Assembly: GCA_035316325.1 (NCBI GenBank)
Contig: DATHJB010000239.1
Location: 2,512 to 66,511, forward strand
DNA from: Acidimicrobiales bacterium
GTDB taxonomy: Bacteria; Actinomycetota; Acidimicrobiia; Acidimicrobiales; VFJN01
Length of the DNA stretch: 64,000 nt
Direction of reading: 5' to 3'
The notes under the pieces: model-generated
What the model was told of the DNA's origin: nothing
Databases searched by the model: none
Seen by the model: the letters and a program-made list of their open reading frames with translations, nothing else
In this document: one piece after another, positions 17,003-31,460 of the stretch
Layout of the letters: each line of letters begins with the position of its first letter
Numbering within the stretch: the first letter of the stretch is position 1
Position numbers and translations under genes: made by a program

Positions 17003-17073
17003 GGGGCCTTCACCCGGCGGATCCTGCTGGGCGAGAGCCTGGACAGCTCCCGGCAAGGCCGCCTACGCTCCGG

Positions 17074-17089
17074 AGCAATCGCTTGGTTG
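17074..17089. promoter_or_regulatory. operator-like site 1 (AGCAATCGCTTGGTTG)
   Basis: Contains the exact 14-mer CAATCGCTTGGTTG. It lies 33 nt upstream of the ALDH start. Confidence 0.5.
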
Positions 17090-17122
17090 TGTACGTCGAC
17101 GAGCACGGGGACGGTGAGGTAC

Positions 17123-18589
17123 ATGGGCGACCTGCAGGTGAAGCAACGCGGCTTGTTCATCGGCAACGACTGGTCGGAGGGTTCGGGCGGGTCGTACCCG
17201 ATCGTCAACCCGGCCACTGAGGAACTGGTCGGCGACGCCCCCGAAGCCGGGGCCGACGACATCGCCCGCGCGGTCGGCGCCGCCCGGGACGCCTTCGACG
17301 GCTGGTCCCGCACCTCGCCGGAGGAGCGCTCCCGCCTGTTGGACCGGGCTGCCGACCTCGTCGAGGCGCGCCGGGACGAGTTCGTTCCCCTGGCCCAGGC
17401 CGAGACCGGCTCCACCCTGACCGCCTCGGCCCAGCTCCACTTCGGCGTGCTGGTGTGGCGGTTGCGCCGCTACGCCCGCGGGGCGCTGGAGACCAGGGAC
17501 CAGGCGCTGCTGCCCCAGGCGCTCGACGGCGCCCCCGGAGTGCCCGGGAGGCTGCTCGGCGCGGTGGCCGCCCGCCGCCCCGTCGGCGTGGTCGCCTGCA
17601 TCACCCCCTACAACTTCCCGGTCGGGGGCATGGCGGGCAAGATCGGCCCGGCCCTGGCCATGGGCAACACCACGGTGGTGAAGCCCCCGCCCCAGGACCC
17701 GCTGGCCTGCCTGCTGCTCGCCGAGGTGCTGGCCGAGGCCGGCTTCCCGCCGGGGGTCGTGAACGTCGTGACCGGTTCCGGCCCCGAGGTGGGGGCGGCG
17801 CTGGTCGACTCGCCCGACGTCGACATGGTCAGCTTCACCGGCAGCTCCGCGGTGGGGGCGAAGATCGCCGAGGCCGGCGGCCGCACCATGAAGCGGCTCC
17901 TGCTGGAGCTGGGCGGCAAGGGGGCGGCCTTGGTGCTGGACGACGCCTCGGTCGAACAGGCCGTCGACGTGGTCTCGGTCACCTACAGCTTCCTGTCCGG
18001 GCAGGGCTGCGTCCTGCCCACCCGGGCGATCGTGCACCGGTCCCTCCACGACGAGTTCGTGGCCGCGCTGGCCGCCAAGGCCCGGACCTTCAAGGTCGGC
18101 GACCCGCTCGACGCCGACACGGTGCTGGGCCCGGTGATCAGCGCGGCCCAGCGCGAGCGGATCGAAGGTCTGGTGCAGGGCGCCCGGGACGAGGGCGCCA
18201 CGGTGGTCGAGGGCGGCTCCCGGCCCGACCTCGGGCGCGGCTTCTACGTAGCGCCCACGCTGGTGAGCGGCGTCGACCCGGGCATGACCCTCGCCCGGCA
18301 GGAGGCGTTCGGCCCGGTGGTGTGCGTGATCCCCTTCGACACCGAGGACGAGGGGATCGCCATCGCCAACTCGTCCCAGTACGGCCTGAACAGCTACCTG
18401 TTCAGCCGGGACGCCGGCCGCGCCTACCGGATCGCGGCCCGGCTCCGGTCCGGCACGGTGTGCATCAACGGCTTCCAGAGCCACCCGGAGGCGCCGTTCG
18501 GCGGTTTCAAGCACAGCGGCCTGGGACGCGACGGCGGGTCGTTCGGACTCGACGCCTACAGCGAGCCGCAGAGCGTTGTCTGGTCCTGA
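17123..18589 (+). CDS. NAD(P)-dependent aldehyde dehydrogenase
   Basis: ATG 17123 is preceded by GGTGAGG. It has the ALDH motifs ...FNFPVGGMAGKIGPALAMGNTTVVKPP..., LELGGKGA (catalytic Glu) and ...FLSGQGCVLPTR (catalytic Cys). Confidence 0.9.
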   Translation: MGDLQVKQRGLFIGNDWSEGSGGSYPIVNPATEELVGDAPEAGADDIARAVGAARDAFDGWSRTSPEERSRLLDRAADLVEARRDEFVPLAQAETGSTLTASAQLHFGVLVWRLRRYARGALETRDQALLPQALDGAPGVPGRLLGAVAARRPVGVVACITPYNFPVGGMAGKIGPALAMGNTTVVKPPPQDPLACLLLAEVLAEAGFPPGVVNVVTGSGPEVGAALVDSPDVDMVSFTGSSAVGAKIAEAGGRTMKRLLLELGGKGAALVLDDASVEQAVDVVSVTYSFLSGQGCVLPTRAIVHRSLHDEFVAALAAKARTFKVGDPLDADTVLGPVISAAQRERIEGLVQGARDEGATVVEGGSRPDLGRGFYVAPTLVSGVDPGMTLARQEAFGPVVCVIPFDTEDEGIAIANSSQYGLNSYLFSRDAGRAYRIAARLRSGTVCINGFQSHPEAPFGGFKHSGLGRDGGSFGLDAYSEPQSVVWS

Positions 18590-19163
18590 CCGGGGCGCGG
18601 GGCCTCGCCTGCGGCCGATCGGGAATGGCGAGGACGCGGAGCTGGACGCGCTGTTCGCAGAGATCGAGGCAGACGGGCGGACGGTGGCCAACGTCCAGCG
18701 GGTGATGGGCCACAACCCCTCGCTGGTGCGGGGGATGGCCGGTCTGGGGGAGGCGGTGCGGTTCTCCCACACGCTGCCCGAGCGTTGGGTGGAGCTGGCG
18801 ATCCTGCGGCTGGCGATCGTCGCGCGGTGCCCCTATCCCTTCAGCCACCACGTGCCCATGGCGCTCGACCTCGGGTTCAGCGAGGAGCAGATCGCCCGGC
18901 TGGTCGACTGGGCCGACGCCACCTGCTTCGACGCCGACGAGCGGCTGGTCCTGAAAGCCACCGACGACGTCGAGCGTGATGCCGGCCTCTCCGACGCGAC
19001 GTTCGCCGCCCTGTCCGAGCGGCTCACCGAGCGGCAGGTGCTCGACCTGGTGATGATCCTGTCGTTCTACGGGCTGCTGGTGCGGGTGGTGAACAGCACC
19101 GGCACCCCGGTCGACGACCGGGTGGCCGAGGTCGTCGACCGGTACTGGCCGTTCAGAGCGTAA
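18576..19163 (+). CDS. carboxymuconolactone decarboxylase (AhpD-like) family protein
   Basis: ...NVQRVMGHNPSLVRGMAGL...WVELAILRLAIVARCPYPFSHHVPMALDLGFSEEQI fits the CMD-domain pattern. The TTG start overlaps the ALDH 3' end by 14 nt. Confidence 0.7.
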   Translation: MSGPDRGAGPRLRPIGNGEDAELDALFAEIEADGRTVANVQRVMGHNPSLVRGMAGLGEAVRFSHTLPERWVELAILRLAIVARCPYPFSHHVPMALDLGFSEEQIARLVDWADATCFDADERLVLKATDDVERDAGLSDATFAALSERLTERQVLDLVMILSFYGLLVRVVNSTGTPVDDRVAEVVDRYWPFRA

Positions 19164-20220
19164 GCACGTTGCGGGCCACGGTGCCGTGCTCGAGCTCCTC
19201 GATCAGGGTGGCGATGTCGTCGACGGGGGAGGTCTTGCTCACCAGCTCGTCGAGGAGCAGATCGCCCCGCTGGTAGAGCTCGACGTAGCGGGGGATGTCC
19301 TGGTGGGGCCGTGCCGAGCCGTAGCGCAGGCCCAGGATGGACTTGTCGAGGAACATCCCCTCCACCAGGAACGAGGCCTTGGTGCCGGAGGGCGGGACGC
19401 CCACCAGCACGCACTGCCCGTGCCAGTCGAGCATGTTCGTGGCCGCCTCGATCAGGCCGGGTGACCCCACGCACTCGAAGACGTGGTCGGCCCCGTCGGG
19501 GAGGATCGTCCTGACCGCGTCCACGAGGTCGCCCGCCGGCGTCGGTCCGATGAAGTCGGTCGCCCCGAACTGCCGGGCCAGGTCCTCCTTGGCGGGGTTG
19601 GTGTCGACGGCCACGATGCGCGAGGCGCGGGCCAGGCGGCAGCCCTGGAGGACGTTGAGCCCGATGCCGCCGATGCCGATGACCACCGCGGTGTCGTTGA
19701 ACCCCACGCGGGCCCGGTTGAGCACCGCCCCGACACCGGTCATGACCGCGCAGCCGATCAGGGAGGCCGCCGCGAGCGGTACCTCGGAGGGGATGCGCAC
19801 GACCTGGTGGGCCTCGACGACGGTCAGCTCGACGAAGGTCGACGCGTTGGCGAAGTTGTGTGTGGGGCGGCCGCCCCAGCTGAAGGGCTGGGGCCGCGTG
19901 CCGAAGCTCTGGCGGCACATAGTGGGGCGGCCCCGGGCGCACTCCGGGCAGGCGCCGCAGTTGGTCAGCGTCGACAGCACCACGTGGTCGCCCGGAGCGA
20001 CACGGTCGACGCCCTCGCCCACGAGCTCGACCACGCCGGCCCCTTCGTGGCCCAGCACCACCGGCACCGGGTACGGGATGGTGCCGTCGACCACGCTCAC
20101 GTCGCTGTGGCACAGCCCGGCGGCGTGCATGCGGACCCGTACCTGGCCCGGGCCGGGCAGGCCCACCTCCAGGTCGTCGACGACCAGCAGTTCCGAACCG
20201 TCGTAGACAGCACCCTTCAT
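19153..20220 (-). CDS. zinc-dependent alcohol dehydrogenase (MDR family, class III-like)
   Basis: Contains GLCHSDV...GHEGAGVVELVGEGV (catalytic Zn), CGACPECARGRPTMC (structural Zn) and a GIGGIGLN Rossmann motif. Its 3' end overlaps the convergent CMD gene by 11 nt. Confidence 0.9.
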   Translation of the reverse strand: MKGAVYDGSELLVVDDLEVGLPGPGQVRVRMHAAGLCHSDVSVVDGTIPYPVPVVLGHEGAGVVELVGEGVDRVAPGDHVVLSTLTNCGACPECARGRPTMCRQSFGTRPQPFSWGGRPTHNFANASTFVELTVVEAHQVVRIPSEVPLAAASLIGCAVMTGVGAVLNRARVGFNDTAVVIGIGGIGLNVLQGCRLARASRIVAVDTNPAKEDLARQFGATDFIGPTPAGDLVDAVRTILPDGADHVFECVGSPGLIEAATNMLDWHGQCVLVGVPPSGTKASFLVEGMFLDKSILGLRYGSARPHQDIPRYVELYQRGDLLLDELVSKTSPVDDIATLIEELEHGTVARNVLTL

Positions 20221-20237
20221 CGTCGTTCCTCTCGTTG

Positions 20238-20253
20238 ACCAATCGCTTGGTTG
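20238..20253. promoter_or_regulatory. operator-like site 2 (ACCAATCGCTTGGTTG; dyad ACCAA-N4-TTGGT)
   Basis: Exact 14-mer, 17 nt upstream of the Zn-ADH start on the minus strand. Confidence 0.5.
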
Positions 20254-20332
20254 ATGATGGGTTGAGGCTCCGGGCCTGTCAAGCGGCGCCCGAACGACCC
20301 CTCCCTTGACGGTGGCGGACGGGCACCCTAGG

Positions 20333-20361
20333 TTGACCTACCAATCGCTTGGTTGTGGAAT
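20333..20361 (+). promoter_or_regulatory. candidate sigma-70-type promoter TTGACC-N17-TGGAAT with the operator in the spacer
   Basis: The -35 is at 20333-20338 and the -10-like hexamer is at 20356-20361. The 17-nt spacer equals operator site 3. This favours GTG 20393 as the SDR start, because ATG 20360 would fall inside the -10 element. Confidence 0.35.
20340..20355. promoter_or_regulatory. operator-like site 3 (ACCAATCGCTTGGTTG)
   Basis: Exact 14-mer, 37 nt upstream of GTG 20393. Confidence 0.5.
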
Positions 20362-20392
20362 GGAGAGGCGTCGGAAGGGGGGTGACGTCGAG

Positions 20393-21256
20393 GTGACAGA
20401 ACTGAACGGCAAGGTCGCGCTGGTCACGGGTGCGGCCCGCGGCCAGGGTCGGAGCCACGCCGTCGGGCTGGCCCGAGCCGGCGCCGACATCGCCGCCTGC
20501 GACGTCGGCGGCCCCTCCCGCAGCACCGCCTACGCCACCGCCACCACCGACGAGCTCGCCGAGACCGCGGCGGCCGTCCGGGCGGAGGGCCGCCGCTGCG
20601 TGACCGGTCAGGTGGACGTGCGCGACCGGGCCGGCCTGCGGGCCTTCGTCGGCGCGGCCGAGGCCGAGCTGGGCGGGGTCGACATCGTGATCGCCAACGC
20701 CGGCGTGCTCGCCTTCAACCTGCCGTGGGAGCTGACCGACGACCAGTGGGACGACGTCATCGACGTCAACCTCACCGGCGTGTGGAACACCGTCCGGGCC
20801 TGCCTGCCCGGGATGGTCGAGCGGGGCCGGGGCGGTTCCGTGGTGCTGATCTCGTCGGCCGCGGGGCTCGTGGCGATACCCGGAGCGGCGTCGTACATCG
20901 CCGCCAAGCACGGCGTGGTCGGGCTGATGAAGGCGCTGGCCGTCGACCTCGGCGCCCACGACATCCGCGTGAACGCGGTCCACCCCGGCGGGGTGGACAC
21001 GCCCATGGTCATGAACCCGGCCACGTACGAGCTGATGACCGGCAGCCCGGACGGCACGCCCGCCGACCTCGACCCCCTGGGCCGGGAGCAGAACCTCCTG
21101 CCCATCGGGTTCCTCGCACCGGAGGACATCACCCGGGCCGTCCTCTACCTGGTCGGCGACGGGGGCCGGTGGGTCACCGGCACGTCGCTCAAGGTCGACG
21201 CGGGCGCCACCGTCACGCCACCCGGCCGGTGGCGTGACCCGGCAAGCACTTCGTAA
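20393..21256 (+). CDS. SDR family oxidoreductase of the mycofactocin-coupled / carveol-dehydrogenase-like subgroup
   Basis: GKVALVTGAARGQGRSHAVGLARAGADIAACDV... carries the GAARGQGRSHA signature I associate with the mycofactocin-dependent SDR subfamily. GTG 20393 is preceded by GGAAGGGGGG. Alternative starts are 20360 and 20306. Confidence 0.8.
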   Translation: MTELNGKVALVTGAARGQGRSHAVGLARAGADIAACDVGGPSRSTAYATATTDELAETAAAVRAEGRRCVTGQVDVRDRAGLRAFVGAAEAELGGVDIVIANAGVLAFNLPWELTDDQWDDVIDVNLTGVWNTVRACLPGMVERGRGGSVVLISSAAGLVAIPGAASYIAAKHGVVGLMKALAVDLGAHDIRVNAVHPGGVDTPMVMNPATYELMTGSPDGTPADLDPLGREQNLLPIGFLAPEDITRAVLYLVGDGGRWVTGTSLKVDAGATVTPPGRWRDPASTS

Positions 21257-21289
21257 CTCACCAACCATCCATCGAGGGAAGGCAACGCC

Positions 21290-22450
21290 ATGGAATTCGG
21301 GATCTTCGTCCAGGGTCACGTGCCCAACACCCGCGTCGAGCGGGAAGGCGATCAGGCCGAGCACAACGCCCTGATGAAGGAGGCCGAGCTGATCCGGGTG
21401 GCCGACCAGAACAACTTCAAGTACGCCTGGATCACCGAGCACCACTTCCTGACCGAGTACTCCCACCTGTCCGCCAGCGACGCGTACCTCGGCTACTGCG
21501 CGGCGCAGACCGAGCGCATCCACCTCGGCTCGGGCATCTTCAGCTTCAACCCCCACAAGGACCACCCCGGGCGGATCGCCGAGCGGGTGGCCATGCTGGA
21601 CCACCTCACCGAGGGCCGCTTCGAGTTCGGGACGGGCCGGGGCGCCGGCAGCCGGGAGGTCACCGGCTGGGACATCGCCTCCACCGACGACACCCGGGCC
21701 ATCTGGGACGAGGTCATCCGCGAGATCCCCAAGATGTGGCGCGACGAGGAGTACGCCTACCAGGGCGAGTACTTCAACCTCCCGTTCCCCGGCGACAAGA
21801 TCCCCACCCGGAACATCCTGCCCAAGCCCTACTCGAAGCCCCACCCGCCCATGTGGGTGGCGGCGGGGAACCCTCCGACCTTCGAGAAGGCCGCCCGGAT
21901 GGGCCTCGGGGTGCTGGCCTTCACCACCCGGGCCGTGCCCGACATGGCGCCGCTGATCGCCACCTACAAGGACAACGTCGGCAAGGCCGAGCCGGTGGGC
22001 GCGTTCGCCAACGACAACGTGATGGTGACCATCGGCCTGGTCTGCATGGAGGACGGCGAGGCGGCCCGGAAGATGGCCGCCAACATGGGCATCAACTACC
22101 TCCAGAGCCTCGTGTACCACTACCACGACACGATCCCGGTCCCCGAGGGTGCGCCGGTCTGGCCGGAGCCGGTCAGCGAGCCCACCCGGGAAGAGGTGGA
22201 GTTCCGCATCGACCAGGGGTACATCCTGTGCGGCGATCCCGACGAGATCACCGAGCAGCTCCGCCGGATGGAGAACGTCGGCATCGACCAGCTCGTCTTC
22301 GGCGTGCCGTGCGACCTGCCGTGGGACGTCGCCGCCGAGTCGCTCCGCCTGTTCGGCGACGAGGTCATCCCCAAGTTCGACACCGAGCCGACGCACCGCA
22401 CCACCCGCCAGCGGGAGGCCGCGGCCGCGAGGATCGCGGGAGCGAGCTGA
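21290..22450 (+). CDS. LLM-class flavin-dependent monooxygenase (about 386 aa, LimB/alkanal-monooxygenase-like)
   Basis: MEFGIF...NFKYAWITEHHFLTEYSHLSA... has the luciferase-like TIM-barrel pattern. RBS GAGGGAAGG lies upstream. Confidence 0.85.
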   Translation: MEFGIFVQGHVPNTRVEREGDQAEHNALMKEAELIRVADQNNFKYAWITEHHFLTEYSHLSASDAYLGYCAAQTERIHLGSGIFSFNPHKDHPGRIAERVAMLDHLTEGRFEFGTGRGAGSREVTGWDIASTDDTRAIWDEVIREIPKMWRDEEYAYQGEYFNLPFPGDKIPTRNILPKPYSKPHPPMWVAAGNPPTFEKAARMGLGVLAFTTRAVPDMAPLIATYKDNVGKAEPVGAFANDNVMVTIGLVCMEDGEAARKMAANMGINYLQSLVYHYHDTIPVPEGAPVWPEPVSEPTREEVEFRIDQGYILCGDPDEITEQLRRMENVGIDQLVFGVPCDLPWDVAAESLRLFGDEVIPKFDTEPTHRTTRQREAAAARIAGAS

Positions 22451-22454
22451 CGCC

Positions 22455-23378
22455 ATGGCCCTGCCCGACCACCTGAAGGAGCTCGCGGCCCGGGTGTCGA
22501 ACTGGGGTCGTTGGGGCCCCGACGACCAGCGCGGGACCCTGAACCTGGTCGACGAGGCCGCCCGGCGGCGGGGGGTGGCCGCCGTCCGGACCGGCAAGGC
22601 GTTCTCCCTGGCCATCCCGTTCGACCGGGACGGCCCGCAGACGGGGCTGATGCCCGGGCGCGACAACCCGTCGCTGCGGATGCTGACCGTCAACGAGCCC
22701 ATGACGGGCGACCCGGCGGACTTCTGCGCCTCCGACGACGCCTTCGGCATGGGGGTGCAGGCCGCGACCCACTGGGACGCCCTGTCCCACGTGAGCTACG
22801 AGGGCAGGCTCTACAACGACGTCGACGCGAGCGTGATCGACGGGTCCGGCGCCGGCCGGCTCGGCATCGAGCACGTCGGGCCGGTGACCACCCGGGGTGT
22901 CCTGCTCGACATCGCCCGCCTGAAGGGCGTCGAGCACTTCGACGAGGGCTACGCCATCACGGGGGACGACCTCGAGAAGGCGGCGGTGCAGGCCGGGGTC
23001 GCGGTGGAGCCGGGGGACGCGCTCCTGGTGCGCACCGGGCAGATGCACCACCTCCCCGACGGACGTGAGCGCTACGTCAACCCGTCGCCCGGGTTGTCGA
23101 CCCGCTCGATCGAGTGGCTGCGGGACCACGACGTGGCCGCGGTGGCCACCGACACCCTGGTGTTCGAGGTGTGGCCGGGCGAGGACCCGGCGGTGACCCT
23201 GCCCGTGCACATGATCCACCTGCGGGACATGGGCCTGCTGCAGGGCCAGAACTGGTACCTCGACGAGCTGGCGGAGGACTGCGCCGGAGACGGTCGCTAC
23301 GAGGTCCTCCTGGTGGCCAACCCCCTCCCGCTGACCCGGTCGGTCAGCGGGGTGGTGGCGCCGGTCGCGCTGAAGTAG
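22455..23378 (+). CDS. cyclase family protein (kynurenine-formamidase-like fold)
   Basis: ATG 22455 lies 4 nt after the LLM stop. The motifs ...WGRWGPDDQRGTLN... and ...ATHWDALSHV... fit the cyclase family. The track ORF start at 22149 is an out-of-context extension. Confidence 0.75.
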   Translation: MALPDHLKELAARVSNWGRWGPDDQRGTLNLVDEAARRRGVAAVRTGKAFSLAIPFDRDGPQTGLMPGRDNPSLRMLTVNEPMTGDPADFCASDDAFGMGVQAATHWDALSHVSYEGRLYNDVDASVIDGSGAGRLGIEHVGPVTTRGVLLDIARLKGVEHFDEGYAITGDDLEKAAVQAGVAVEPGDALLVRTGQMHHLPDGRERYVNPSPGLSTRSIEWLRDHDVAAVATDTLVFEVWPGEDPAVTLPVHMIHLRDMGLLQGQNWYLDELAEDCAGDGRYEVLLVANPLPLTRSVSGVVAPVALK

Positions 23379-23431
23379 CCGGGGATCGAGCTGGTGGACG
23401 TGCCCCGGTACCCGCGTAGGTCGAGGGCTCA

Positions 23432-23447
23432 AGCAAGCATTTGGTGC
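23432..23447. promoter_or_regulatory. degenerate operator-like site 4 (AGCAAGCATTTGGTGC)
   Basis: Matches sites 2 and 3 at 10 of 15 positions and keeps the CAA-N4-TTGGT core. It lies 46 nt upstream of ATG 23494. Confidence 0.3.
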
Positions 23448-23493
23448 AGTGGTCCGATCGCCGGATCAGGACAGGCAGGGGGTGAACGCAGAG

Positions 23494-24279
23494 ATGACCG
23501 ATCTACTCGAGGACAAGGTCGTGGTCGTGGTCGGTGTCGGTGAGGGCCTCGGCCGGGCCATCGCCGAGCAGTGCTGCCAGCACGGCGCCGACGTGGCGCT
23601 CGGGGCCCGCTCCGAGGACTACCTGAAGGGCCTGGCCGACGAGCTCGCCGAGGCGACCGGCCGGGGCACCTTCGGCCATCACGTCGACATCGGCGAGCCC
23701 GCTGCGGTGACGGCCTTCCACAGAGCGGTGCTCGATCGCTTCGGACGGGTCGACACGCTGGTCCTCAACGCGGCCGACGACGAGGTACTGGGGCCCCTCG
23801 AGGGCGGCGACATCGATCGCTGGCGCCGGCAGATGGACCTGAACGTCATGGGCAGCATGCGCGTCGTGCAGGCCTTCGCCGGCGACCTGAAGGCCGGCCG
23901 GGGGTCCGTCGTCTTCACCGACTCGATGATCGTCGACAAGGTGCTGCCCACCATGGGCTCCTACGCCATGACCAAGGGCGCGCTGCGCGTGGGCGCCCGC
24001 ACCCTGGCCCGGGAGCTCGGCGCCGAGGGGGTGCGGGTCAACTCGGTCGCTCCGGGCTGGATGTGGGGCGACTCGGTCGAGCAGTACATGGAGGGCGTCG
24101 AGCGCGACACCGGGACAACGGTCGCCGAGCAGAAAGGCGCCATCGCCGCCCAGTTCGCCCTGCCCGACTGGCCCACCGAGGTCGACTGCGCCAACGCCGT
24201 CGTCTTCCTGGCCTCCCCGCTCGCGAGCTCCGTCACCGGCGTGTGCCTCGACGTCAACGCCGGCGAGCTCTTCCGCTGA
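23494..24279 (+). CDS. SDR family oxidoreductase
   Basis: MTDLLEDKVVVVVGVGEGLGRAIA... is preceded by RBS CAGGGGG. The stop overlaps the next ATG (TGATG). Confidence 0.8.
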   Translation: MTDLLEDKVVVVVGVGEGLGRAIAEQCCQHGADVALGARSEDYLKGLADELAEATGRGTFGHHVDIGEPAAVTAFHRAVLDRFGRVDTLVLNAADDEVLGPLEGGDIDRWRRQMDLNVMGSMRVVQAFAGDLKAGRGSVVFTDSMIVDKVLPTMGSYAMTKGALRVGARTLARELGAEGVRVNSVAPGWMWGDSVEQYMEGVERDTGTTVAEQKGAIAAQFALPDWPTEVDCANAVVFLASPLASSVTGVCLDVNAGELFR

Positions 24280-27050
24280 TGGACAAGTTCCTCAGCCTGG
24301 TCATCAGCGGCGCCGTCAGCGGAGCCATCTACTCGCTGATCGCCTCGGGCCTGGTCCTCTCCTACACCGCCAGCGGCATCTTCAACCTCGGCTACGGGGC
24401 GGTCGCCTTCGCCTCGGCCTTCCTCTACTACGAGCTGCACGTCGGCTGGGGGTGGCCGATCGTCCCCGCCGCGCTGGCCACCGTCCTCGTGTTCGCCCCC
24501 GCGCTGGGCTGGGTGCTGCACGCCACCATCTTCCGCCGGCTCGGACAGGCGCGGGACGAGGCCAAGATCGTGGCCACGGTCGGGATCCTGGTGGCGGTGC
24601 CGGCGCTGATGCGGTGGGTCTTCGAGGTGCTGGTGAACGTCGTGCACTGGGACCTGCCGCTGGGCACCAACGTCTACGCGGCCCCCGGCATCGGCCCCAC
24701 GCCCAAGGAGACCTGGAACCCGTTCGGCCGGGTGACCGTCGACTCCAACCAGGTGATCGTCTTCGCCGGCGCCGCGGTGGTGGCGCTGGTCCTGTGGGTC
24801 GTCGTGCGGCGCACCCGCCTGGGCCTGCAGTTCCGGGCGGTGGTCGACGGCCCCGAGCTGGCCGGGATGCGCGGCATCGACCCGGACCGCGCCACCGGCG
24901 CCTCGTGGGTCTTGGGCACCACCATCGCCGCCTTCGCCGGCGTCATCGCCGCGCCGGTCTTCAACAGCCTGCAGGCGTCCACCTACACGCTGGCCATGTT
25001 CGCCGCCGTCGCCGCGGCGGTGATCGGCGGGCTGCGGTCGGTGCCGTGGGCCTTCGTCGGCGGGCTGGCGCTGGGGGTCATCCAGAACCTCGTGGCCGGG
25101 TACGCCACCTTCGCCTCGGACATCCGGGGCTTCAGCGCCTCGGTGCCGTTCGCGGTGGTGTTCGTCGGCCTGCTCGTGATGTCGCGGTCGAAGGGCCGCC
25201 AGGCGGGGACGGTCGCCCGGGAGCGCATCGTCGGCGACCTGCCCCTGGTGGGCGCCGGGCGCCGAGCCCTCGCCGGCTGGGTCGCCGGTGCCGCCCTGCT
25301 GGTCGCCTACCTGTTCGTGGCCGACCCCTTCTGGCTCGGCCTGACCACCCGGGGCCTGGCCCTGGGCGTGGTGTTCCTGTCCTTCGTGCTGGTCACCGGC
25401 CACGGCGGGATGGTGAACCTGGCGCCCGCGGCGTTCGTGACCGCGGCCGGGCTCACCACCGGCCTGCTCTACCAGCACTACGGCCTGCCGGTGCAGGGAG
25501 CGGCGCTGGGCGGCATCGCGGTGGCCGTGGTCCTGGGGGTCCTCGTGGCCCTGCCGTCGCTGCGAATGGGAGGGCTGCCGCTGGCCCTGGCGACGCTGGC
25601 GCTGGCCTTCATGGGCGACAACGTCCTGTTCTCCTGGAACTGGTTCCGCAACGGACAGGCCGGCTGGGAGATCCCCCGACTCACCGTCGGCCCCCTCGAC
25701 CTTGCCGACGAGCGCACCTTCGGCGTGGTGCTGCTGGTCGTGACCGCCGCGGTGATCCTGGCCATCCACAACGTGAGCACGTCGGCCTCGGGCCGGGCCA
25801 TGCTCGCCGTCCGCTCGTCGGAGGCGGCCGCCGAGGCCAGCGGGCTGTCGGCGACCCGGGCCAAGCTGCTCGTCTTCGCCCTGGCCGCGGGGGTGGCCGG
25901 GCTGGGCGGCGTCCTCCTCAGCTCGTTCGACCGCCACGCCGTCAACGAGGCCTACCCGGCGACGCTGGGCCTCACCTGGCTGGCGGTAGTCGTGCTGTTC
26001 GGGGTGCGACGCCCCGAGGGCGCGGTGATCGCCGGGCTGATGGCCTCGCTGTTCCCCGCGCTCGTCAGCAAGGGCGTCCATTGGCCCGAGCCGGTGCCGA
26101 GCTGGCTGAACTGGGACGGCACCGAGGTGGCGTGGGTGCCCGACGCGCTGTTCGGCATGGGCGCCATCCAGCTGGCCAAGGACCCGAACGGGATGCTCTC
26201 GCTCTTCGGGGCGCGCCGGCGCCGAGCCGCCGCCGCCCAGGCTGCAGCCGAGGCGGAGGATCGGCAGCCGCCGCCGGTGGTGACGACGGCTGCGGGACCG
26301 GCCGCCTGGCAGCCCGCCGGGTCGGAGGCGCCCGTGCTGGAGCTACAGGGCGTCTCGGCCGGCTACGGCGCGGCAGCGGTCCTCTTCGGTGTGGACCTGG
26401 AGCTGCGGCCGGGCCGCATCACCGCTCTGGTGGGCCCCAACGGCGCGGGCAAGTCGACGCTGAGCGCCGTGGTGGCCGGCACGCTGCCCGTCACCTCGGG
26501 CGCCGTGCGCCTCGCGGGGACGGACGTCAGCGGCGAGGCGGCCCACCGGCGGGCACCCCGGGGCCTCGTCGTGTCGCCCGAGTCGCGGGGGATCTTCCCG
26601 GACCTGACCGTGGACGACAACCTGGCGGTCCGCCTGCCCGGCCGGAAGGACCGCGCCGCGGTCTACGACCGGTTCCCGCAGCTGGCCGCCCGCCGCGACC
26701 TCCCGGCCGGCCGCCTGTCCGGCGGCGAGCAGCAGATCCTGTCGCTGGCCTCGGTGGTGGTGAGCCCGCCGGCGGTGTTCGTGGCCGACGAGCCCTCCCT
26801 GGGGCTGGCGCCGCTGGTGGTGGACGAGATCAAGGAGCTGGTGACCGGCCTGCGGGACGCGGGGGTGGCGGTGCTGCTGATCGAGGAGCAGGCCAACGCC
26901 GTGCTCGACATCGCCGACGACGTGGCCGTGCTCGACCTGGGCCGCATCGCCCGGCGGGGGCCGGCCGAGTCGGTGACCGCGGAGGAGCTGTCGTCGGCCT
27001 ACATGGGCCTGGAGCTGTCGGGCGACGAGCCGCAGGGAGCACGGCGATGA
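24279..27050 (+). CDS. fused branched-chain-amino-acid-type ABC transporter: LivH-like permease + LivM-like permease + LivF-like ATPase in one 923-aa polypeptide
   Basis: A single uninterrupted frame runs from ATG 24279. It contains a LivH block (...YSLIASGLVLSYTASGIFNLGYGA...) and a LivM block (...VLVTGHGGMVNLAPAAF...). The ATPase part has GPNGAGKST, LSGGEQQIL and VFVADEPSLGL. The first 236 aa of the 1159-aa track ORF overlap the SDR gene and are rejected. Confidence 0.8.
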   Translation: MDKFLSLVISGAVSGAIYSLIASGLVLSYTASGIFNLGYGAVAFASAFLYYELHVGWGWPIVPAALATVLVFAPALGWVLHATIFRRLGQARDEAKIVATVGILVAVPALMRWVFEVLVNVVHWDLPLGTNVYAAPGIGPTPKETWNPFGRVTVDSNQVIVFAGAAVVALVLWVVVRRTRLGLQFRAVVDGPELAGMRGIDPDRATGASWVLGTTIAAFAGVIAAPVFNSLQASTYTLAMFAAVAAAVIGGLRSVPWAFVGGLALGVIQNLVAGYATFASDIRGFSASVPFAVVFVGLLVMSRSKGRQAGTVARERIVGDLPLVGAGRRALAGWVAGAALLVAYLFVADPFWLGLTTRGLALGVVFLSFVLVTGHGGMVNLAPAAFVTAAGLTTGLLYQHYGLPVQGAALGGIAVAVVLGVLVALPSLRMGGLPLALATLALAFMGDNVLFSWNWFRNGQAGWEIPRLTVGPLDLADERTFGVVLLVVTAAVILAIHNVSTSASGRAMLAVRSSEAAAEASGLSATRAKLLVFALAAGVAGLGGVLLSSFDRHAVNEAYPATLGLTWLAVVVLFGVRRPEGAVIAGLMASLFPALVSKGVHWPEPVPSWLNWDGTEVAWVPDALFGMGAIQLAKDPNGMLSLFGARRRRAAAAQAAAEAEDRQPPPVVTTAAGPAAWQPAGSEAPVLELQGVSAGYGAAAVLFGVDLELRPGRITALVGPNGAGKSTLSAVVAGTLPVTSGAVRLAGTDVSGEAAHRRAPRGLVVSPESRGIFPDLTVDDNLAVRLPGRKDRAAVYDRFPQLAARRDLPAGRLSGGEQQILSLASVVVSPPAVFVADEPSLGLAPLVVDEIKELVTGLRDAGVAVLLIEEQANAVLDIADDVAVLDLGRIARRGPAESVTAEELSSAYMGLELSGDEPQGARR

Positions 27051-27820
27051 CCGCGGACGCCGTCCCCCTGCTGGAGCTGGACGCCGTGGGCGTGCGGTTC
27101 GGCGGGGTCAGGGCCCTGGACGAGGTCAGCCTCTCGGTGGCCCCCGGGGAGGTCGTGGGGATCATCGGTCCCAACGGGGCCGGCAAGAGCACCCTCTTCG
27201 ACGTGATCTCGGGGCTGCGGAAGCCCACCGCCGGCCGGGTCCGGTTCCGGGGCGCCGACGTGACCCGGCGCTCGGCGCCCCAGCGGGCCCGGGCCGGGAT
27301 CCGCCGCACCTTCCAGCGCCAGCAGCTGTTCGACGACCTGTCGGTGCTGGACAACGTGGTGGCAGCGCAGGACTGGCGGGGCGGTGGGGGTGGCCCGCTG
27401 GCCGACGTGGTGGCCTGGCCCGCCCGCCGGCGGCCCGAGCGCACCCGCCGCGAACAGGCCCGCCGGACCTTGGAGCTGTGCGGCTTCGACCGCGACGTGG
27501 CCCTGTCGGCCGGCACCCTGGCCATCGGCGAGGCCCGCACGGTCGAGTTCGCCCGGGCCATCGTCGACGGGGCCGACCTCCTGCTGCTCGACGAGCCCAC
27601 CTCGGGCCTGGGGAAGGCCGAGACCCGACGGTTCGGGGAGACGCTCGACACGGTCCACGCCGAACAGGGGTTCTCGGTGCTCCTGGTGGAGCACGACGTC
27701 GGCTTCGTCATGGAGCACGCCTCCCGGATCCTGGTGCTCCACCTCGGCCGGGTGCTGGCCGCCGGAACGCCCGCCGAGGTCCGGGCCGATCCCGAAGTGC
27801 GGGCCGCCTACCTGGGCTGA
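27047..27820 (+). CDS. LivG-like ABC transporter ATP-binding protein
   Basis: The ATG overlaps the upstream stop (ATGA). It has Walker A GPNGAGKST, Walker B LLLLDEPTSGL and the C-terminus ...DPEVRAAYLG typical of LivG-type ATPases. Confidence 0.85.
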   Translation: MTADAVPLLELDAVGVRFGGVRALDEVSLSVAPGEVVGIIGPNGAGKSTLFDVISGLRKPTAGRVRFRGADVTRRSAPQRARAGIRRTFQRQQLFDDLSVLDNVVAAQDWRGGGGGPLADVVAWPARRRPERTRREQARRTLELCGFDRDVALSAGTLAIGEARTVEFARAIVDGADLLLLDEPTSGLGKAETRRFGETLDTVHAEQGFSVLLVEHDVGFVMEHASRILVLHLGRVLAAGTPAEVRADPEVRAAYLG

Positions 27821-27888
27821 GCCGTGAAGACACCGAGTCCGACCAGATCGCAAGACCTGTCCATCGTGCAAGCGAGGGGGAAGAGAAG

Positions 27889-29160
27889 ATGAAGCGCCGA
27901 ACAGTAGGAGTGCTGGCTCTCGTGTTGTTGGTGGTGAGCGCCTGCGGGACCAGCGGCGACGACAGCGACAGCAGCGACGGCGGCAACGACGGCAACGACG
28001 AGCCGGCGGCACCCCAGGAGAGCCAGACGGCCCGGGGCGTGTCCGCCGACGAGATCCGGGTGGGCGGCGTCGCCCAGCTCGAGTACTACCCCGGCATCGA
28101 CGTCGGCGCCAAGGCCCGGTTCGAGCGGGCCAACCGCGACGGTGGCGTCCACGGCCGGAAGATCACGCTGACCGGCGTGCAGGACGACGCCAGCGACGCC
28201 AGCCGGGGAGCGAGCATCGTCCGCGACCTCGTGCAGAGCGAGGAGGTGTTCGCGGTGCTCCCCGTGACCAGCGTCAACTTCCTGCCCCAGTCGTCGGACT
28301 TCCTCCAGGAGGAGGAGGTCCCCTACATCGGGTGGGGCATGGTCCCCGGGTTCTGCGGCTCCGAGTGGGGCTACGGCTTCAGCGGGTGCCTCATCAACCC
28401 GGACATCGCCAACACCTCCACCATCGACCCGATGCTGGAGGAGCTGGACAAGCCCGCCGACGAGGTGCGGGCGGCCATCCAGGCCGGCGACGACGACTCC
28501 GGCCGCGGGGCCCTCGGCCTGTACGAGAGCGTGCTGCAGGACCGCGGAGCGGAGGTCGTGTACTCCGAGGCCAACGCCCCGCCCGCGGGGCAGACCACCG
28601 ACTGGACCCCCTACGCCCAGGAGATGCTGGCCCAGGACCCGGACATCGTGGTCATGTCCCTGGACTTCCCGGGCAGCGTGGGCCTCAACGGCGCCCTGCG
28701 GGCCGCCGGGTTCGAGGGGGCGACCATGGGCTACGTCGCCTACGTCCCCGGTGTGCTGGACGAGCAGGCCGACGCGGCCGCCGCGCTCGAGGGCACCTAC
28801 GTCAACGTCCAGGTGCCGCCCCAGGAGGACGACAGCCCGGCCACCCAGCAGATCGAGGACGACCTGGAAGCCATCGGCGAGGAGCCGTTCATGACGTTCG
28901 GGGTCTCGCTGGGCTACTGGCAGGCGGACATGTTCATCGCCATGCTCGAAGCCACCGGCGAGGACCTGACGCCCCAGGCGTTCCACGACACCGTCAACGG
29001 CGGGTTCACCTACGAGCCCGAGCTCGAGGGCGCCGTCGGCCCCATCGAGTTCCCCGACGCCCTGAACCGACCCGCCCCGTGCGCGGGCCTGGTGCAGGTC
29101 CGCGAGGGCCAGTACGAGTCGTCGCAGGAGTTCTCCTGCTACGAGGTCCTCGACCGGTGA
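27889..29160 (+). CDS. ABC transporter substrate-binding lipoprotein (LivK / type-I PBP-like)
   Basis: MKRRTVGVLALVLLVVSAC/GTSG lipobox is preceded by RBS GAGGGGGAAGAG. The pattern ...IRVGGV...NRDGGVHGRKITL...DD fits the amino-acid/amide-binding PBP1 family. Confidence 0.75.
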   Translation: MKRRTVGVLALVLLVVSACGTSGDDSDSSDGGNDGNDEPAAPQESQTARGVSADEIRVGGVAQLEYYPGIDVGAKARFERANRDGGVHGRKITLTGVQDDASDASRGASIVRDLVQSEEVFAVLPVTSVNFLPQSSDFLQEEEVPYIGWGMVPGFCGSEWGYGFSGCLINPDIANTSTIDPMLEELDKPADEVRAAIQAGDDDSGRGALGLYESVLQDRGAEVVYSEANAPPAGQTTDWTPYAQEMLAQDPDIVVMSLDFPGSVGLNGALRAAGFEGATMGYVAYVPGVLDEQADAAAALEGTYVNVQVPPQEDDSPATQQIEDDLEAIGEEPFMTFGVSLGYWQADMFIAMLEATGEDLTPQAFHDTVNGGFTYEPELEGAVGPIEFPDALNRPAPCAGLVQVREGQYESSQEFSCYEVLDR

Positions 29161-29173
29161 GGGGGCACCGCTG

Positions 29174-30067
29174 ATGCGCTTCCACCAGGCCGTGGCCTTC
29201 CTGGAGGTCGACCACCTGCTCGAGCTGTGCCGGGCGACCGACGACCTCGGCTTCGACGGCATCTTCGTGTCGGACCACATCTGCTACCCGAAGGACCTGC
29301 AGTCGCCCTACCCCTACTCGCCGTACGAGGACGGCTCGCCGGCCTGGGCGCCCGAGTCGCCCTGGCCCGACTGCTGGTGCCTCATATCGGCCATGGCCGC
29401 GGTGACCGAGCGCCTCACGTTCACCACCGGGGTCTACGTGGCCCCGGCCCGGGACCTGCTCTCGGTGGCCAAGCAGGTGGGGACCGCGGCGGTCATCTCC
29501 GGCGACCGGGTGCGCTGCGGGGTGGGGGCGGGCTGGTGCAAGGAGGAGTTCGACCTCACCGGCCAGGAGTTCGGCAACCGGGGCGCCCGGCTCGACGACA
29601 TGATCCCCGCCCTGCGCGCGCTGTGGGGCGGGGGCTGGGTCGAGTACCACGGCTCCCACTACGACGTGCCCCCGGTGATGCTCCGCCCGTCGCCGAGTCG
29701 CCCGGTCCCGGTCTACGTCGGCGGCAACAGCCGGCCGGCCATGCGCCGGGCCGTGCAGCTCGGCGACGGCTGGATGTGCGCCGACGTGCGCCCGCCGGAC
29801 GAGGCCATGGAGCTGCTGCAGACCTTCACCGCCGAGTTGGCCCGGGCCGGCCGGTCGGAGGAGGGCTACCCGATCTACATGACGGTGGCGGCCCCGCCGG
29901 AGCCCGACCTGATCCGCCGGTTCGAGGACGCCGGGGTGACCGACTGGATCTGCGCACCGTGGATGCTGGCCGAGCAGAGCAGCGAGCGGGCCTTCAGCTC
30001 CACGGTCGCCGACAAGGTCGCCGCGGCCGAGCGCTTCGCCGACGACGTCATCGCCGAGCTGCGGTGA
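29174..30067 (+). CDS. LLM-class F420-dependent oxidoreductase (TIGR03619-like)
   Basis: MRFHQAV......LGFDGIFVSDH...TERLTFTTGVYV...GVGAGWCKEEFDLTG fits this family pattern. Confidence 0.8.
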   Translation: MRFHQAVAFLEVDHLLELCRATDDLGFDGIFVSDHICYPKDLQSPYPYSPYEDGSPAWAPESPWPDCWCLISAMAAVTERLTFTTGVYVAPARDLLSVAKQVGTAAVISGDRVRCGVGAGWCKEEFDLTGQEFGNRGARLDDMIPALRALWGGGWVEYHGSHYDVPPVMLRPSPSRPVPVYVGGNSRPAMRRAVQLGDGWMCADVRPPDEAMELLQTFTAELARAGRSEEGYPIYMTVAAPPEPDLIRRFEDAGVTDWICAPWMLAEQSSERAFSSTVADKVAAAERFADDVIAELR

Positions 30068-30084
30068 CCGCAGGAGGACCGACC

Positions 30085-30552
30085 ATGCCCACGCCCATCG
30101 ATGCCGGGACGCTCAGCTACGTGGCCGACCGCATCGCCATAGACGACCTGCTCACCCGGTACACGACCGCGGTCGACCTGGAACGCTGGGAGCTGTTCGA
30201 CACGGTGTTCCTGCCCGACGCGGTCATCGACTACACGTCGGCCGGCGGCATCCGAGGCGGGCCCGACGACATCAGGGACTGGTTGATCCGCGCCCTCGAG
30301 CCCTTCCCGGTGCGCCAGCACCTGCTGGGCAACAAGGAGGTGCGGATCGACGGCGACACCGCGTCGGTGCGGGCCTACTTCTTCAACCCGCTGATGATGA
30401 CCGGGCCCGACGGCGCCTCCCGGTTCCTGCCCGGTGGCGGCTACTACCACCACCGGCTGGTGCGCACCCCGGACGGCTGGCGCAGCGCCGAGCTGGTCGA
30501 AGAGGAGGTCTGGCGGGACGGCCTGCCCGACGACCTCGAGATCCCCACCTGA
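30085..30552 (+). CDS. SnoaL-like / NTF2-fold protein
   Basis: ATG 30085 is preceded by CAGGAGGA. The pattern ...ADRIAIDDLLTRYTTAVDLERWELFDTVF..DAVIDY is typical of SnoaL_4 proteins. Confidence 0.7.
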   Translation: MPTPIDAGTLSYVADRIAIDDLLTRYTTAVDLERWELFDTVFLPDAVIDYTSAGGIRGGPDDIRDWLIRALEPFPVRQHLLGNKEVRIDGDTASVRAYFFNPLMMTGPDGASRFLPGGGYYHHRLVRTPDGWRSAELVEEEVWRDGLPDDLEIPT

Positions 30553-30562
30553 GGCCGAGCAG

Positions 30563-31426: not shown

Positions 31427-31460
31427 GGCAGCCAACCCCCTCTGACACCGAAGGAGAACC

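What the first reader, a model, noticed from the sequence alone, without database searches (positions are those of the whole stretch)
17074..23447. An exact 14-nt operator-like motif upstream of three transcription units (plus one degenerate copy) defines a putative regulon
CAATCGCTTGGTTG occurs three times exactly, at 17076-17089, 20240-20253 and 20342-20355. The copies lie 33 nt upstream of the ALDH gene (+), 17 nt upstream of the Zn-ADH gene (-), and 37 nt upstream of the mycofactocin-type SDR operon (+).

Two copies extend to the dyad ACCAA-TCGC-TTGGT. A degenerate copy, AGCAAGCATTTGGTGC at 23432-23447, precedes the second SDR/ABC operon.

At the SDR promoter the site is exactly the 17-nt spacer between TTGACC and TGGAAT. 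That is the classic position of a repressor operator. Three exact 14-mers in 64 kb are very unlikely by chance.

No regulator gene lies adjacent to any of the sites. Candidates in the window are the MmyB-like, TetR and LysR genes at 10.8-15.5 kb.
Basis: seen in the sequence. Interest (0 to 1): 0.6.

Follow-up and report, generated by a model that had tools for sequence, protein, structure and literature searches.

The report
KstR2-type repressor operators on catabolic operons
The repeated 14-base motif is real and matches the known binding site of KstR2-type TetR repressors, whose only candidate gene in this genome lies on another contig, so it marks an ordinary repressor regulon wired to an uncharacterised oxidative catabolic island.

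Summary
CAATCGCTTGGTTG occurs exactly three times in the window (17076, 20240, 20342), and a degenerate fourth copy lies at 23432. The whole 6.37 Mb genome has one more exact copy, in the promoter of a TetR gene on contig C140.

That TetR belongs to the KstR2 family. Its best solved-structure match is M. tuberculosis KstR2 (E 1.5e-40), and it is the only protein in the assembly carrying the recognition helix GILSGSLYHHF.

The motif fits the published KstR2 operator AnCAAGnnCTTGnT at 9 of 10 specified positions. A weight matrix built only from published mycobacterial and rhodococcal sites places its eight best genome hits in the window (four) and in C140 (four).

Related sites lie upstream of ALDH, ADH and TetR orthologues in metagenomic contigs. 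Paralogous clusters in relatives without this TetR lack them.

The sites abut or overlap likely core promoters, which fits repression relieved by an acyl-CoA effector.

Its candidate regulators in the window are not supported.

The regulon is not the classical steroid HIP regulon: ipdAB and fadD3 homologues elsewhere carry no site.

Verdict: a new member of a known kind, of moderate interest.

The parts
17040..17069 (+). Putative ALDH promoter: TGGACA, 18 nt, TACGCT
   Evidence: Read by eye. Not called by the consensus scan. Inference.
17074..17089 (.). Operator 1: AGCAATCGCTTGGTTG, a KstR2-type site 33 nt upstream of the ALDH ATG
   Evidence: The published-site matrix gives 22.3 bits, fourth in the genome. 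It is near-identical to the EMSA-positive M. tuberculosis probe GAGCAAGCGCTTGGTTG.
17123..19163 (+). Operon 1: aldehyde dehydrogenase (17123-18589) and a CMD/AhpD-like protein (18576-19163)
   Evidence: The orthologous ALDH-CMD-ADH arrangement occurs in L129.
19153..20220 (-). Zn-dependent alcohol dehydrogenase. Nearest NCBIfam model is TIGR03989, below its cut-off.
20238..20253 (.). Operator 2: ACCAATCGCTTGGTTG, directly abutting the -10 element of the ADH promoter
   Evidence: 22.1 bits. The promoter was called by the scan.
20254..20282 (-). ADH promoter: TTGACA, 17 nt, CATCAT (10 of 12 matches)
   Evidence: It is the only promoter-like site called in 16900-23600 (shuffles: mean 0.2).
20306..20334 (+). 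Putative SDR-operon promoter: TTGACG, 17 nt, TAGGTT.
   Evidence: Read by eye. Neither candidate passes the scan's thresholds. Inference.
20340..20355 (.). Operator 3: ACCAATCGCTTGGTTG, 37 nt upstream of the SDR GTG and 102 bp from operator 2
   Evidence: 25.4 bits, the best hit in the whole genome.
20393..23378 (+). Operon 3: mycofactocin-coupled-type SDR (20393-21256; TIGR03971, 358 bits against a cut-off of 300), luciferase-like monooxygenase (21290-22450) and a PF04199 cyclase-family protein (22455-23378)
23395..23422 (+). Putative promoter of operon 4: TGGACG, 16 nt, TAGGTC
   Evidence: Read by eye. Inference.
23432..23445 (.). Operator 4: AGCAAGCATTTGGT, matching 9 of 10 specified positions of AnCAAGnnCTTGnT
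   Evidence: 17.4 bits, eighth in the genome. The same CAAGCATTTGGTTG variant lies upstream of ADH orthologues in L117 and L129.
23494..32249 (+). Operon 4. SDR (probable ATG at 23494, ends 24279); fused Liv-type permease/ATPase (24279-27050); ATPase (27047-27820); binding protein (27889-29160); LLM (29174-30067); SnoaL-like (30085-30552); LLM (30434-31426); SDR (31461-32249).
   Evidence: Frame plot and start codons. Pfam and NCBIfam. The tail of the last SDR is 83% identical to the gene next to the ADH orthologue in L117.

Best explanation
The four sites are operators for a KstR2-family TetR repressor encoded in trans at G000 contig C140:13683-14285. A dimer of this protein binds the imperfect palindrome A(C/G)CAA(T/G)CGCTTGGT. 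The palindrome sits immediately downstream of, or overlapping, the -10 element and transcription start of four promoters in the window.

Binding would block transcription of four units:
- ALDH-CMD
- Zn-ADH
- SDR-LLM-cyclase
- SDR, Liv-type importer, LLM, SnoaL, LLM and SDR

The same protein would repress itself and at least three further promoters in its own 28-kb cluster. That cluster encodes CoA ligases, acyl-CoA dehydrogenases, a thiolase, amidohydrolases, LLMs, a P450 and an Opp-type importer.

By analogy with KstR2, whose effector is HIP-CoA, repression is probably lifted by an acyl-CoA thioester. The CoA ligase encoded next to the regulator could make this thioester from the substrate acid.

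What is shown:
- The sites and their uniqueness in the genome.
- Their match to the KstR2 motif.
- A single protein in the assembly with the KstR2 recognition helix.
- A site in the regulator's own promoter.
- Conservation of sites at orthologous loci.

What is inferred:
- Actual binding of the protein to the sites.
- The promoter positions at three of the four units.
- The direction of regulation (repression).
- The effector.
- The substrate. From the gene content it is possibly an alicyclic or terpenoid-like alcohol, aldehyde or acid.
For: 1. Motif identity. Kendall et al. 2010 (PMC3068626) give the KstR2 motif AnCAAGnnCTTGnT. The EMSA-positive M. tuberculosis probe contains GAGCAAGCGCTTGGTTG. 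The window has GAGCAATCGCTTGGTTG at 17073. A predicted R. jostii site, AACCAAGCGATTG, carries the same G-to-T variant.

2. Independent scan. A matrix built only from the 7 distinct published sites was run over all 6.37 Mb. Its top 8 hits all lie in the window (20339, 17073, 20237, 23431) or in C140 (9673, 14426, 25664, 14334). At 22 bits or more there are 5 sites, against a mean of 0.1 in 20 local shuffles. At 20 bits or more there are 6, against 0.7.

3. Regulator. The best solved-structure hits of the C140 TetR are KstR2 entries 4W1U, 4W97 and 2IBD (E about 1e-40). Identity is 62% in the DNA-binding domain, with the helix GILSGSLYHHF identical, and 27% in the ligand domain. A six-frame search finds that helix only once in the assembly. 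The next-best TetR is 27% identical.

4. Autoregulation. The exact 14-mer and a second site, TACCAATCGCTAGGTA, lie in the divergent promoter region of the TetR gene.

5. Footprinting.
- L114 (TetR 73% identical) has TACCTAGCGATTGGTT upstream of its TetR, plus two more sites.
- L117 and L129 (ADH 73%, ALDH 78% identical) have sites upstream of ALDH and ADH; L117 also has one upstream of the binding-protein gene.
- L130 (ALDH 74% identical) has sites upstream of ALDH and between an LLM gene and the gene downstream of it.

6. Negative control. Ten paralogous loci in relatives hold ALDH and ADH, with LLM seen in seven, and G000's own C182 copy holds all three. None has a site. The six of those relatives covered by the TetR search have no homologue of this TetR. 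One same-genus relative has only 30-31% identical KstR2-family proteins.

7. Position. The only promoter called by the scan ends at 20254, directly abutting operator 2. Site-to-start-codon distances of 17-48 nt resemble the 22-82 bp reported for mycobacteria.
Against: - No binding or expression data exist.
- The regulator lies on another contig, so the link rests on the motif, the helix and co-occurrence.
- The assembly is 96.8% complete. A same-genus relative carries two other KstR2-family paralogues with the same helix. An unassembled paralogue could therefore be the true binder.
- The 60%-identical homologue locus L102 has only a half-site upstream of its TetR gene.
- Three of the four promoters were read by eye only.
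- The left half-site at 17074 (AGCAA) and the right half-site at 23432 (TTTGG) are imperfect.
Confidence: 0.78

Rival explanations
1. The sites are KstR2-type operators, but the protein that binds them is a different KstR2-family paralogue. It would lie in the roughly 3% of the genome that is not assembled, or the sites would be shared with the C140 TetR.
For: The assembly is 96.8% complete in 244 contigs. Same-genus genome G002 has two further KstR2-family TetRs with the same recognition helix and strong sites around them.
Against: The exact 14-mer, including its unusual T, occurs only at the window sites and in the C140 TetR promoter. The CAATCG variant recurs next to the 73% orthologue of that TetR. 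No L007- or L009-type protein is found in G000.
Confidence: 0.1
2. One of the regulators encoded in the window binds the motif: the TetR at 13620-14228, the MmyB-like protein at 14691-15551, or the LysR at 10805-11722.
For: Proximity only: these genes lie 1.5-6 kb upstream of the first site.
Against: No motif copy, even with 3 mismatches or above 10 bits, lies near these genes. The window TetR has an SbtR-like C-domain and a different helix, GLGPGTLHRHF. The motif is fully accounted for by the KstR2 consensus.
Confidence: 0.06
3. The copies have no regulatory role. They are a small dispersed repeat, a chance recurrence, or an RNA-level or sigma-factor element.
For: Four copies identical over 14 nt is more uniform than typical operator sets.
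Against: - Flanks are unrelated beyond about 17 nt.
- All copies are promoter-proximal.
- The orientation relative to the gene is inverted at the ADH, which argues against an RNA or sigma-factor element.
- Shuffles never reach the observed counts.
- Diverged but consensus-keeping sites occur at orthologous loci.
Confidence: 0.03

Closest known systems
KstR2 (Rv3557c, MSMEG_6009, ro04598) and its operator AnCAAGnnCTTGnT. KstR2 is the TetR-family repressor of the steroid C/D-ring (HIP) catabolic regulon in Mycobacterium and Rhodococcus (Kendall et al. 2010, PMC3068626; Crowe et al. 2017, PMC5380842).
   Same: - The 14-bp inverted repeat is the same. The window sites match 9 of 10 specified positions and are near-identical to the autoregulatory sites of M. 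tuberculosis and R. jostii, including the GGTTG extension.
- The fold family (TetR_N plus TetR_C_24) and the recognition helix are the same.
- A site lies in the regulator's own promoter.
- Sites lie 17-48 nt upstream of start codons and in divergent intergenic regions.
- The regulator gene lies next to a CoA ligase gene, consistent with an acyl-CoA effector.
   Different: - Identity to M. tuberculosis KstR2 is only 38% overall and 27% in the ligand domain.
- The proposed KstR2-3 ligand-domain signature is not kept: EARWTQIEK against EDRNKQQRK.
- The target genes are ALDH, Zn-ADH, mycofactocin-type SDR, LLMs, cyclase, SnoaL proteins and Liv- or Opp-type importers, not ipdAB, ipdC, echA20 or fadD3.
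- The genome's ipdAB-type cluster (C30) and its FadD3-family ligases (C182, C12) carry no site.
- There are at least 8 sites on two contigs, against 3 sites in one cluster.
- The divergent ADH/SDR region has two operators 102 bp apart, not one shared site.
Predicted KstR2 regulons extended beyond the core cluster in Nocardioides simplex (PMC7593942)
   Same: KstR2-type motifs are predicted in front of several separate clusters in a non-mycolate actinobacterium.
   Different: There the clusters are still steroid-degradation genes induced by cholesterol or lithocholate. Here the host is an Acidimicrobiia genome and the targets are not recognisable steroid genes.
Acyl-CoA-responsive TetR repressors related to KstR2, such as Thermus thermophilus FadR and PfmR and Bacillus subtilis FadR
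   Same: They follow the same general logic: a TetR dimer sits on a palindromic operator at the promoter and is released by an acyl-CoA made by the pathway.
   Different: Similarity is much lower (PDB 3VPR E 4e-17), and their operator sequences differ (from my own knowledge, not tested here).

Membership tests
KstR2-type operator | 14-bp inverted repeat AnCAAGnnCTTGnT | tested here: met
   All four window sites match 9 of 10 specified positions. The G-to-T variant is also present in a published predicted R. jostii site.
KstR2-type operator | Recognised by a model built from validated sites, and rare elsewhere in the genome | tested here: met
   A matrix from the 7 published sites puts its top 8 of 6.37 Mb in the window (4) and in the TetR's contig (4). 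At 22 bits or more there are 5 sites against 0.1 in shuffles.
KstR2-type operator | Promoter-proximal position in intergenic regions upstream of regulated genes | tested here: met
   The sites lie 17-48 nt from start codons. One abuts a tool-called -10 element. The other promoters were read by eye.
KstR2-type operator | Bound specifically by the KstR2-family protein (EMSA) | not testable with these tools
KstR2 orthologue (for the C140 TetR) | TetR_N plus TetR_C_24 architecture, with KstR2 as the closest characterised relative | tested here: met
   PF00440 and PF17932. PDB 4W1U, 4W97 and 2IBD at E about 1e-40, with the next hit at 1e-18.
KstR2 orthologue (for the C140 TetR) | [quoted passage not shown] | tested here: not met
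   72 of 189 aligned residues, 38%. The criterion is quoted.
KstR2 orthologue (for the C140 TetR) | Motif in its own promoter (autoregulation) | tested here: met
   Two sites lie in the TetR/VOC divergent region, at C140:14334 and 14426. This is conserved in the 73% orthologue L114.
KstR2 orthologue (for the C140 TetR) | Regulon made of HIP-catabolic genes (fadD3, ipdAB, ipdC, echA20, fadE30-33, fadA6) | tested here: not met
   The echA20-ipdA-ipdB-ipdC-like cluster on C30 (IpdA homologue against PDB 6CO6, E 1e-92) has no site; its best score is 10.9 bits, far from the promoter. The FadD3-family ligases above cut-off lie on C182 and C12, and neither contig has a hit. The C140 ligases are below the FadD3 cut-off.
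KstR2 orthologue (for the C140 TetR) | Ligand-domain signature KstR2-3: [ED]-[DE]-[RM]-N-[RK]-[QE]-Q-R-K (PMC13176608) | tested here: not met
   The aligned segment is EARWTQIEK (alignment, pattern). That paper finds the signature only in Mycobacteriaceae, so this is a weak criterion.
KstR2 orthologue (for the C140 TetR) | HIP-CoA as effector | not testable with these tools
   Requires ligand-binding assays.
Dispersed repeat or MITE | Copies share extended flanks, terminal repeats or a non-promoter distribution | tested here: not met
   Similarity is limited to about 17 nt. There are only 4 exact copies in the genome, all promoter-proximal.

The most novel reading that the evidence does not exclude
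In this Acidimicrobiia lineage the KstR2 DNA-binding module and its operator have been kept, while the ligand domain and the target genes have been exchanged. The regulator no longer controls the steroid HIP genes, which are present but carry no site. Instead it controls a two-locus regulon of about 40 or more genes for an unknown oxidative pathway, with an unknown acyl-CoA effector. That regulon includes a mycofactocin-type SDR, several LLM monooxygenases, SnoaL and cyclase proteins, and two or three importers. The operator would then be a practical handle for delimiting a new alicyclic or terpenoid catabolic pathway in uncultured Acidimicrobiia.
Probability: 0.45. Interest if true: 0.5.

Novelty: new member of a known kind. 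Interest (0 to 1): 0.35.

Why it matters
The motif is a ready-made marker that ties together two separate gene clusters of an uncultured Acidimicrobiia genome: the window island and the 28-kb C140 cluster, with possible weaker sites on C186. Together they form one predicted regulon. This delimits a catabolic pathway whose substrate is unknown and names a single testable regulator for it.

It also shows a KstR2-type DNA-binding module and operator used outside steroid C/D-ring catabolism. Automatic annotation that calls such proteins 'cholesterol catabolism regulator' (as JGI does for several homologues) can therefore mislead.

Mechanistically it is a standard TetR repressor-operator system, so the conceptual novelty is modest.

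Tried and rejected
1. Regulators in the window as binders. No site lies near them and their recognition helices differ.

2. MftR as binder, because one target is a mycofactocin-type SDR. No MftR above cut-off exists (best 112 bits against 224.9), although MftC is present.

3. Dispersed repeat. The flanks are unrelated.

4. Footprinting in GTDB relatives.
- The closest genomes carry only about 69% identical paralogous ALDH-ADH-LLM clusters without sites. These serve as a negative control, not as orthologues.
- A sample of 400 genomes of the class gave one 40% homologue of the TetR.

5. The genome-contig scan with the TetR returned only homologues of 41% identity or less, from Streptosporangiales and Nocardioides. 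It was not useful for orthology.

6. L102, the 60% TetR homologue from an Acidimicrobiales MAG, has no site passing the matrix. Only a half-site, TCGCTTGGTTG, lies upstream of its TetR gene.

7. The contigs for P0003, P0243 and one P0012 place had gene lists but no DNA.

8. The Solihabitans fulvus cluster (LLM, ALDH-ADH-cyclase-CMD-P450) has the same gene families but lies next to a LuxR-type regulator. It has no site at the ALDH promoter.

9. The hit at C148:16026 lies inside a glutamine synthetase gene, so it is chance.

Full report
**Observation**

The 14-mer CAATCGCTTGGTTG is present exactly at 17076, 20240 and 20342 on the + strand. Allowing 3 mismatches gives 8 matches against 2.05 expected, and none of 100 shuffles reaches that number. 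The dyad ACCAA-N4-TTGGT is exact at 20238 and 20340. It has one mismatch at 17074 and at 23432.

It also confirms the degenerate copy AGCAAGCATTTGGTGC at 23432.

The window is G000:C239:2512-66511, in a 6.37 Mb assembly of 244 contigs with 72% G+C. Homologue names and earlier notes point to Acidimicrobiia.

Genome-wide there is exactly one more copy of the 14-mer, at C140:14425 on the - strand. An alignment of the copies with 50-nt flanks shows similarity only over about 17 nt. This is a short site, not a mobile repeat.

**Genes around the sites**

Composition by codon position plus Pfam and NCBIfam searches give four transcription units.

| Unit | Genes and coordinates |
|---|---|
| 1 | ALDH (17123-18589), CMD-family protein (18576-19163) |
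| 2 | Zn-ADH (19153-20220, - strand) |
| 3 | SDR of the mycofactocin-coupled type (20393-21256; TIGR03971 above cut-off), luciferase-like monooxygenase (21290-22450), PF04199 cyclase-family protein (22455-23378) |
| 4 | SDR (probably from ATG 23494), Liv-type ABC importer, LLM, SnoaL-like protein, LLM, SDR, running to 32249 |

Upstream, at 10.8-15.5 kb, lie a LysR gene, a TetR gene with an SbtR-like C-domain and a MmyB-like gene.

**What the motif is**

The fourth genomic copy lies in the divergent region between a TetR gene (C140:13683-14285, - strand) and a VOC/acyl-CoA dehydrogenase operon. A second related site, TACCAATCGCTAGGTA, lies 90 bp away.

The best solved-structure matches of that TetR are KstR2 of M. 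tuberculosis (4W1U and 4W97, E 1.5e-40) and the R. jostii homologue 2IBD. The next hit is at 1e-18.

Kendall et al. 2010 (PMC3068626) defined the KstR2 operator as AnCAAGnnCTTGnT and showed binding by EMSA.
- Their M. tuberculosis autoregulatory probe reads GAGCAAGCGCTTGGTTGATA. The window reads GAGCAATCGCTTGGTTGTGT at 17073.
- Their predicted R. jostii site AACCAAGCGATTGCTTGG contains the reverse complement of the window core, including the G-to-T change.
- Each of the four window sites matches 9 of the 10 specified consensus positions.

**Independent genome-wide test**

I built a symmetrised 16-nt weight matrix from the seven distinct published sites only and scanned the whole assembly. The eight best hits are:
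- window 20339 (25.4 bits), 17073 (22.3), 20237 (22.1) and 23431 (17.4);
- C140 9673 (24.9), 14426 (24.2), 25664 (20.9) and 14334 (18.0).

All eight therefore lie in two contigs that make up 1.6% of the genome.

In 20 locally shuffled genomes the mean number of hits at 22 bits or more is 0.1 (maximum 2), against 5 observed. At 20 bits or more it is 0.7, against 6 observed.

Lower-ranked candidates at C186:1652 and C186:5767 lie upstream of a binding-protein gene and an MFS transporter gene. They may be weak members of the regulon. The hit at C148:16026 lies inside a glutamine synthetase gene and is chance.

**Which protein binds**

Identity of the C140 TetR to M. tuberculosis KstR2 differs sharply between domains.

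| Region | Identity |
|---|---|
| Overall | 38% |
| DNA-binding domain | 62% |
| Ligand domain | 27% |

Within the DNA-binding domain, TTVRDIAD--GILSGSLYHHFA-KEEMV is almost unchanged.

A six-frame search of the assembly finds the helix G[IV][LQ]SGS[LI]YHHF only in this gene. tblastn finds no other relative above 27% identity. The window's own TetR has a different helix, and no site lies near the window regulators. No MftR above cut-off exists, although MftC does.

The C140 TetR is therefore the single candidate in the assembly. One caveat applies. The genome is 96.8% complete, and a same-genus genome has two other KstR2-family paralogues with the same helix and many strong sites of their own.

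**Comparative evidence**

Close orthologues of the TetR (60-76% identity) occur only on metagenomic contigs. Their neighbourhoods share synteny with C140: TetR, CoA ligase, SDR, ABC transporter, aldo-keto reductase, VOC, enoyl-CoA hydratase, P450, cyclase, SDR.

| Locus | Relation to G000 | Sites found |
|---|---|---|
| L114 | TetR 73% identical | TACCTAGCGATTGGTT upstream of the TetR; AAGCAAGCGCTCGGTA upstream of an amidohydrolase gene; a third between the TetR and the ligase, mirrored at C140:13663 |
| L129, L117 | ALDH 78%, ADH 73% identical; arrangement ALDH-CMD-ADH-binding protein | AAGCAACCGCTAGGTT upstream of ALDH; GACCAAGCATTTGGTT and AAGCAAGCGCATGGTT upstream of ADH; TAGCAATCGATTGGTT upstream of the binding-protein gene |
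| L130 | ALDH 74% identical; same metagenome as L114 | Two sites upstream of ALDH; AGCCAAGCGCTTGGTT between an LLM gene and the gene downstream of it |

These sites differ in sequence from the window's but keep the consensus. That is what a functional operator predicts.

The negative control points the same way. Ten paralogous loci in relatives hold ALDH and ADH, with LLM seen in seven, and G000's own C182 copy holds all three. None has a site. The six of those relatives covered by the TetR search have no homologue of this TetR. One same-genus relative has only 30-31% identical KstR2-family proteins. In a 400-genome sample of the class, one 40% homologue was found.

**Position and mechanism**

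The consensus scan calls one promoter in 16900-23600. It is TTGACA-17-CATCAT on the - strand and ends at 20254, directly abutting operator 2.

By eye, the other three sites lie 4-9 nt downstream of plausible -35/-10 pairs:
- TGGACA-18-TACGCT
- TTGACG-17-TAGGTT
- TGGACG-16-TAGGTC

All four operators would then cover the transcription start. Either position is repressive.

The inferred mechanism is occlusion of RNA polymerase by a TetR dimer, relieved by an acyl-CoA. This follows KstR2, whose effector is HIP-CoA (PMC5380842). It is also consistent with the two CoA ligase genes downstream of the regulator, whose best model is cyclohexanecarboxylate-CoA ligase, below cut-off.

**How it differs from classical KstR2**

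G000 has an echA20-ipdA-ipdB-ipdC-fadE-fadE-thiolase cluster on C30. Its IpdA homologue matches PDB 6CO6 at E 1e-92. It also has two FadD3-family ligases above cut-off, on C182 and C12. None of these has a KstR2-type site.

The C140 cluster has no ipdAB. The ligand domain is diverged and lacks the proposed KstR2-3 signature.

So the operator and the DNA-binding module belong to the KstR2 kind, but the regulator is not a KstR2 orthologue in the regulon sense. From gene content alone, the targets suggest oxidation of an alcohol or aldehyde to an acid, CoA activation, and ring or chain processing by LLM, SnoaL, amidohydrolase and beta-oxidation enzymes.

**Verdict**

- The regulon interpretation is supported.
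- The system is a new member of a known kind.

Noticed in passing
G000 contig C30:2941-9757 (outside the window): A canonical-looking steroid C/D-ring (HIP) cluster: echA20-like, ipdA, ipdB, ipdC-like, two acyl-CoA dehydrogenases and a thiolase. It has no KstR2-type operator. Its upstream region instead holds the palindrome CTGACGGGCCGTCAG, and no TetR gene lies nearby.
   Followed up: partly
L122 (G002:C654) and L123 (G002:C374), same-genus genome: Two further KstR2-family TetRs, about 30% identical to the C140 protein but with the same recognition helix. L123 holds six sites of about 20-28 bits and L122 one 28-bit site plus three weaker ones, in unrelated catabolic islands. The KstR2 DNA-binding module seems to be reused widely in this lineage.
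   Followed up: partly
G000 contig C140:9673-9688: A strong site (24.9 bits) lies inside the last codons of a CoA ligase gene, about 20 nt upstream of the GTG of an ABC permease gene. The operator is embedded in coding sequence.
   Followed up: no
window 20238-20355: The divergent ADH/SDR region carries two separate operators whose centres are 102 bp apart, about 10 helical turns. Mycobacteria use one shared site for divergent KstR2 targets.
   Followed up: no
G000 contigs C176, C29 (two copies), C187 and C46: Five Rieske oxygenases with a KshA C-terminal domain lie above the Pfam cut-off. This suggests steroid or related polycyclic catabolism in this Acidimicrobiia genome.
   Followed up: no
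G000 contig C182:38951-42597, and relatives G001-G011: A paralogous ALDH, Zn-ADH and LLM cluster, about 69% identical in DNA to the window's copy, is conserved across the family. It lacks the CMD and SDR genes and lacks the motif.
   Followed up: partly
G000 contig C213:1261-2274, and whole genome: The mycofactocin maturase MftC is present (655 bits), but no MftR-type regulator reaches its cut-off (best 112 against 224.9).
   Followed up: no
L118 (Solihabitans fulvus VUOB01000074.1): The same gene families (LLM, ALDH, Zn-ADH, cyclase, CMD, P450) form one cluster next to a large LuxR-type regulator. This points to a conserved functional module placed under different regulators in different actinobacteria.
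   Followed up: no
G000 contig C148:25167-27850: A stretch of about 2.7 kb has no high-GC3 ORF and an AT-richer sequence. It holds a palindromic KstR2-like site, AGCAAAGCGCTTGCTA (15.8 bits). Its nature was not examined.
   Followed up: no
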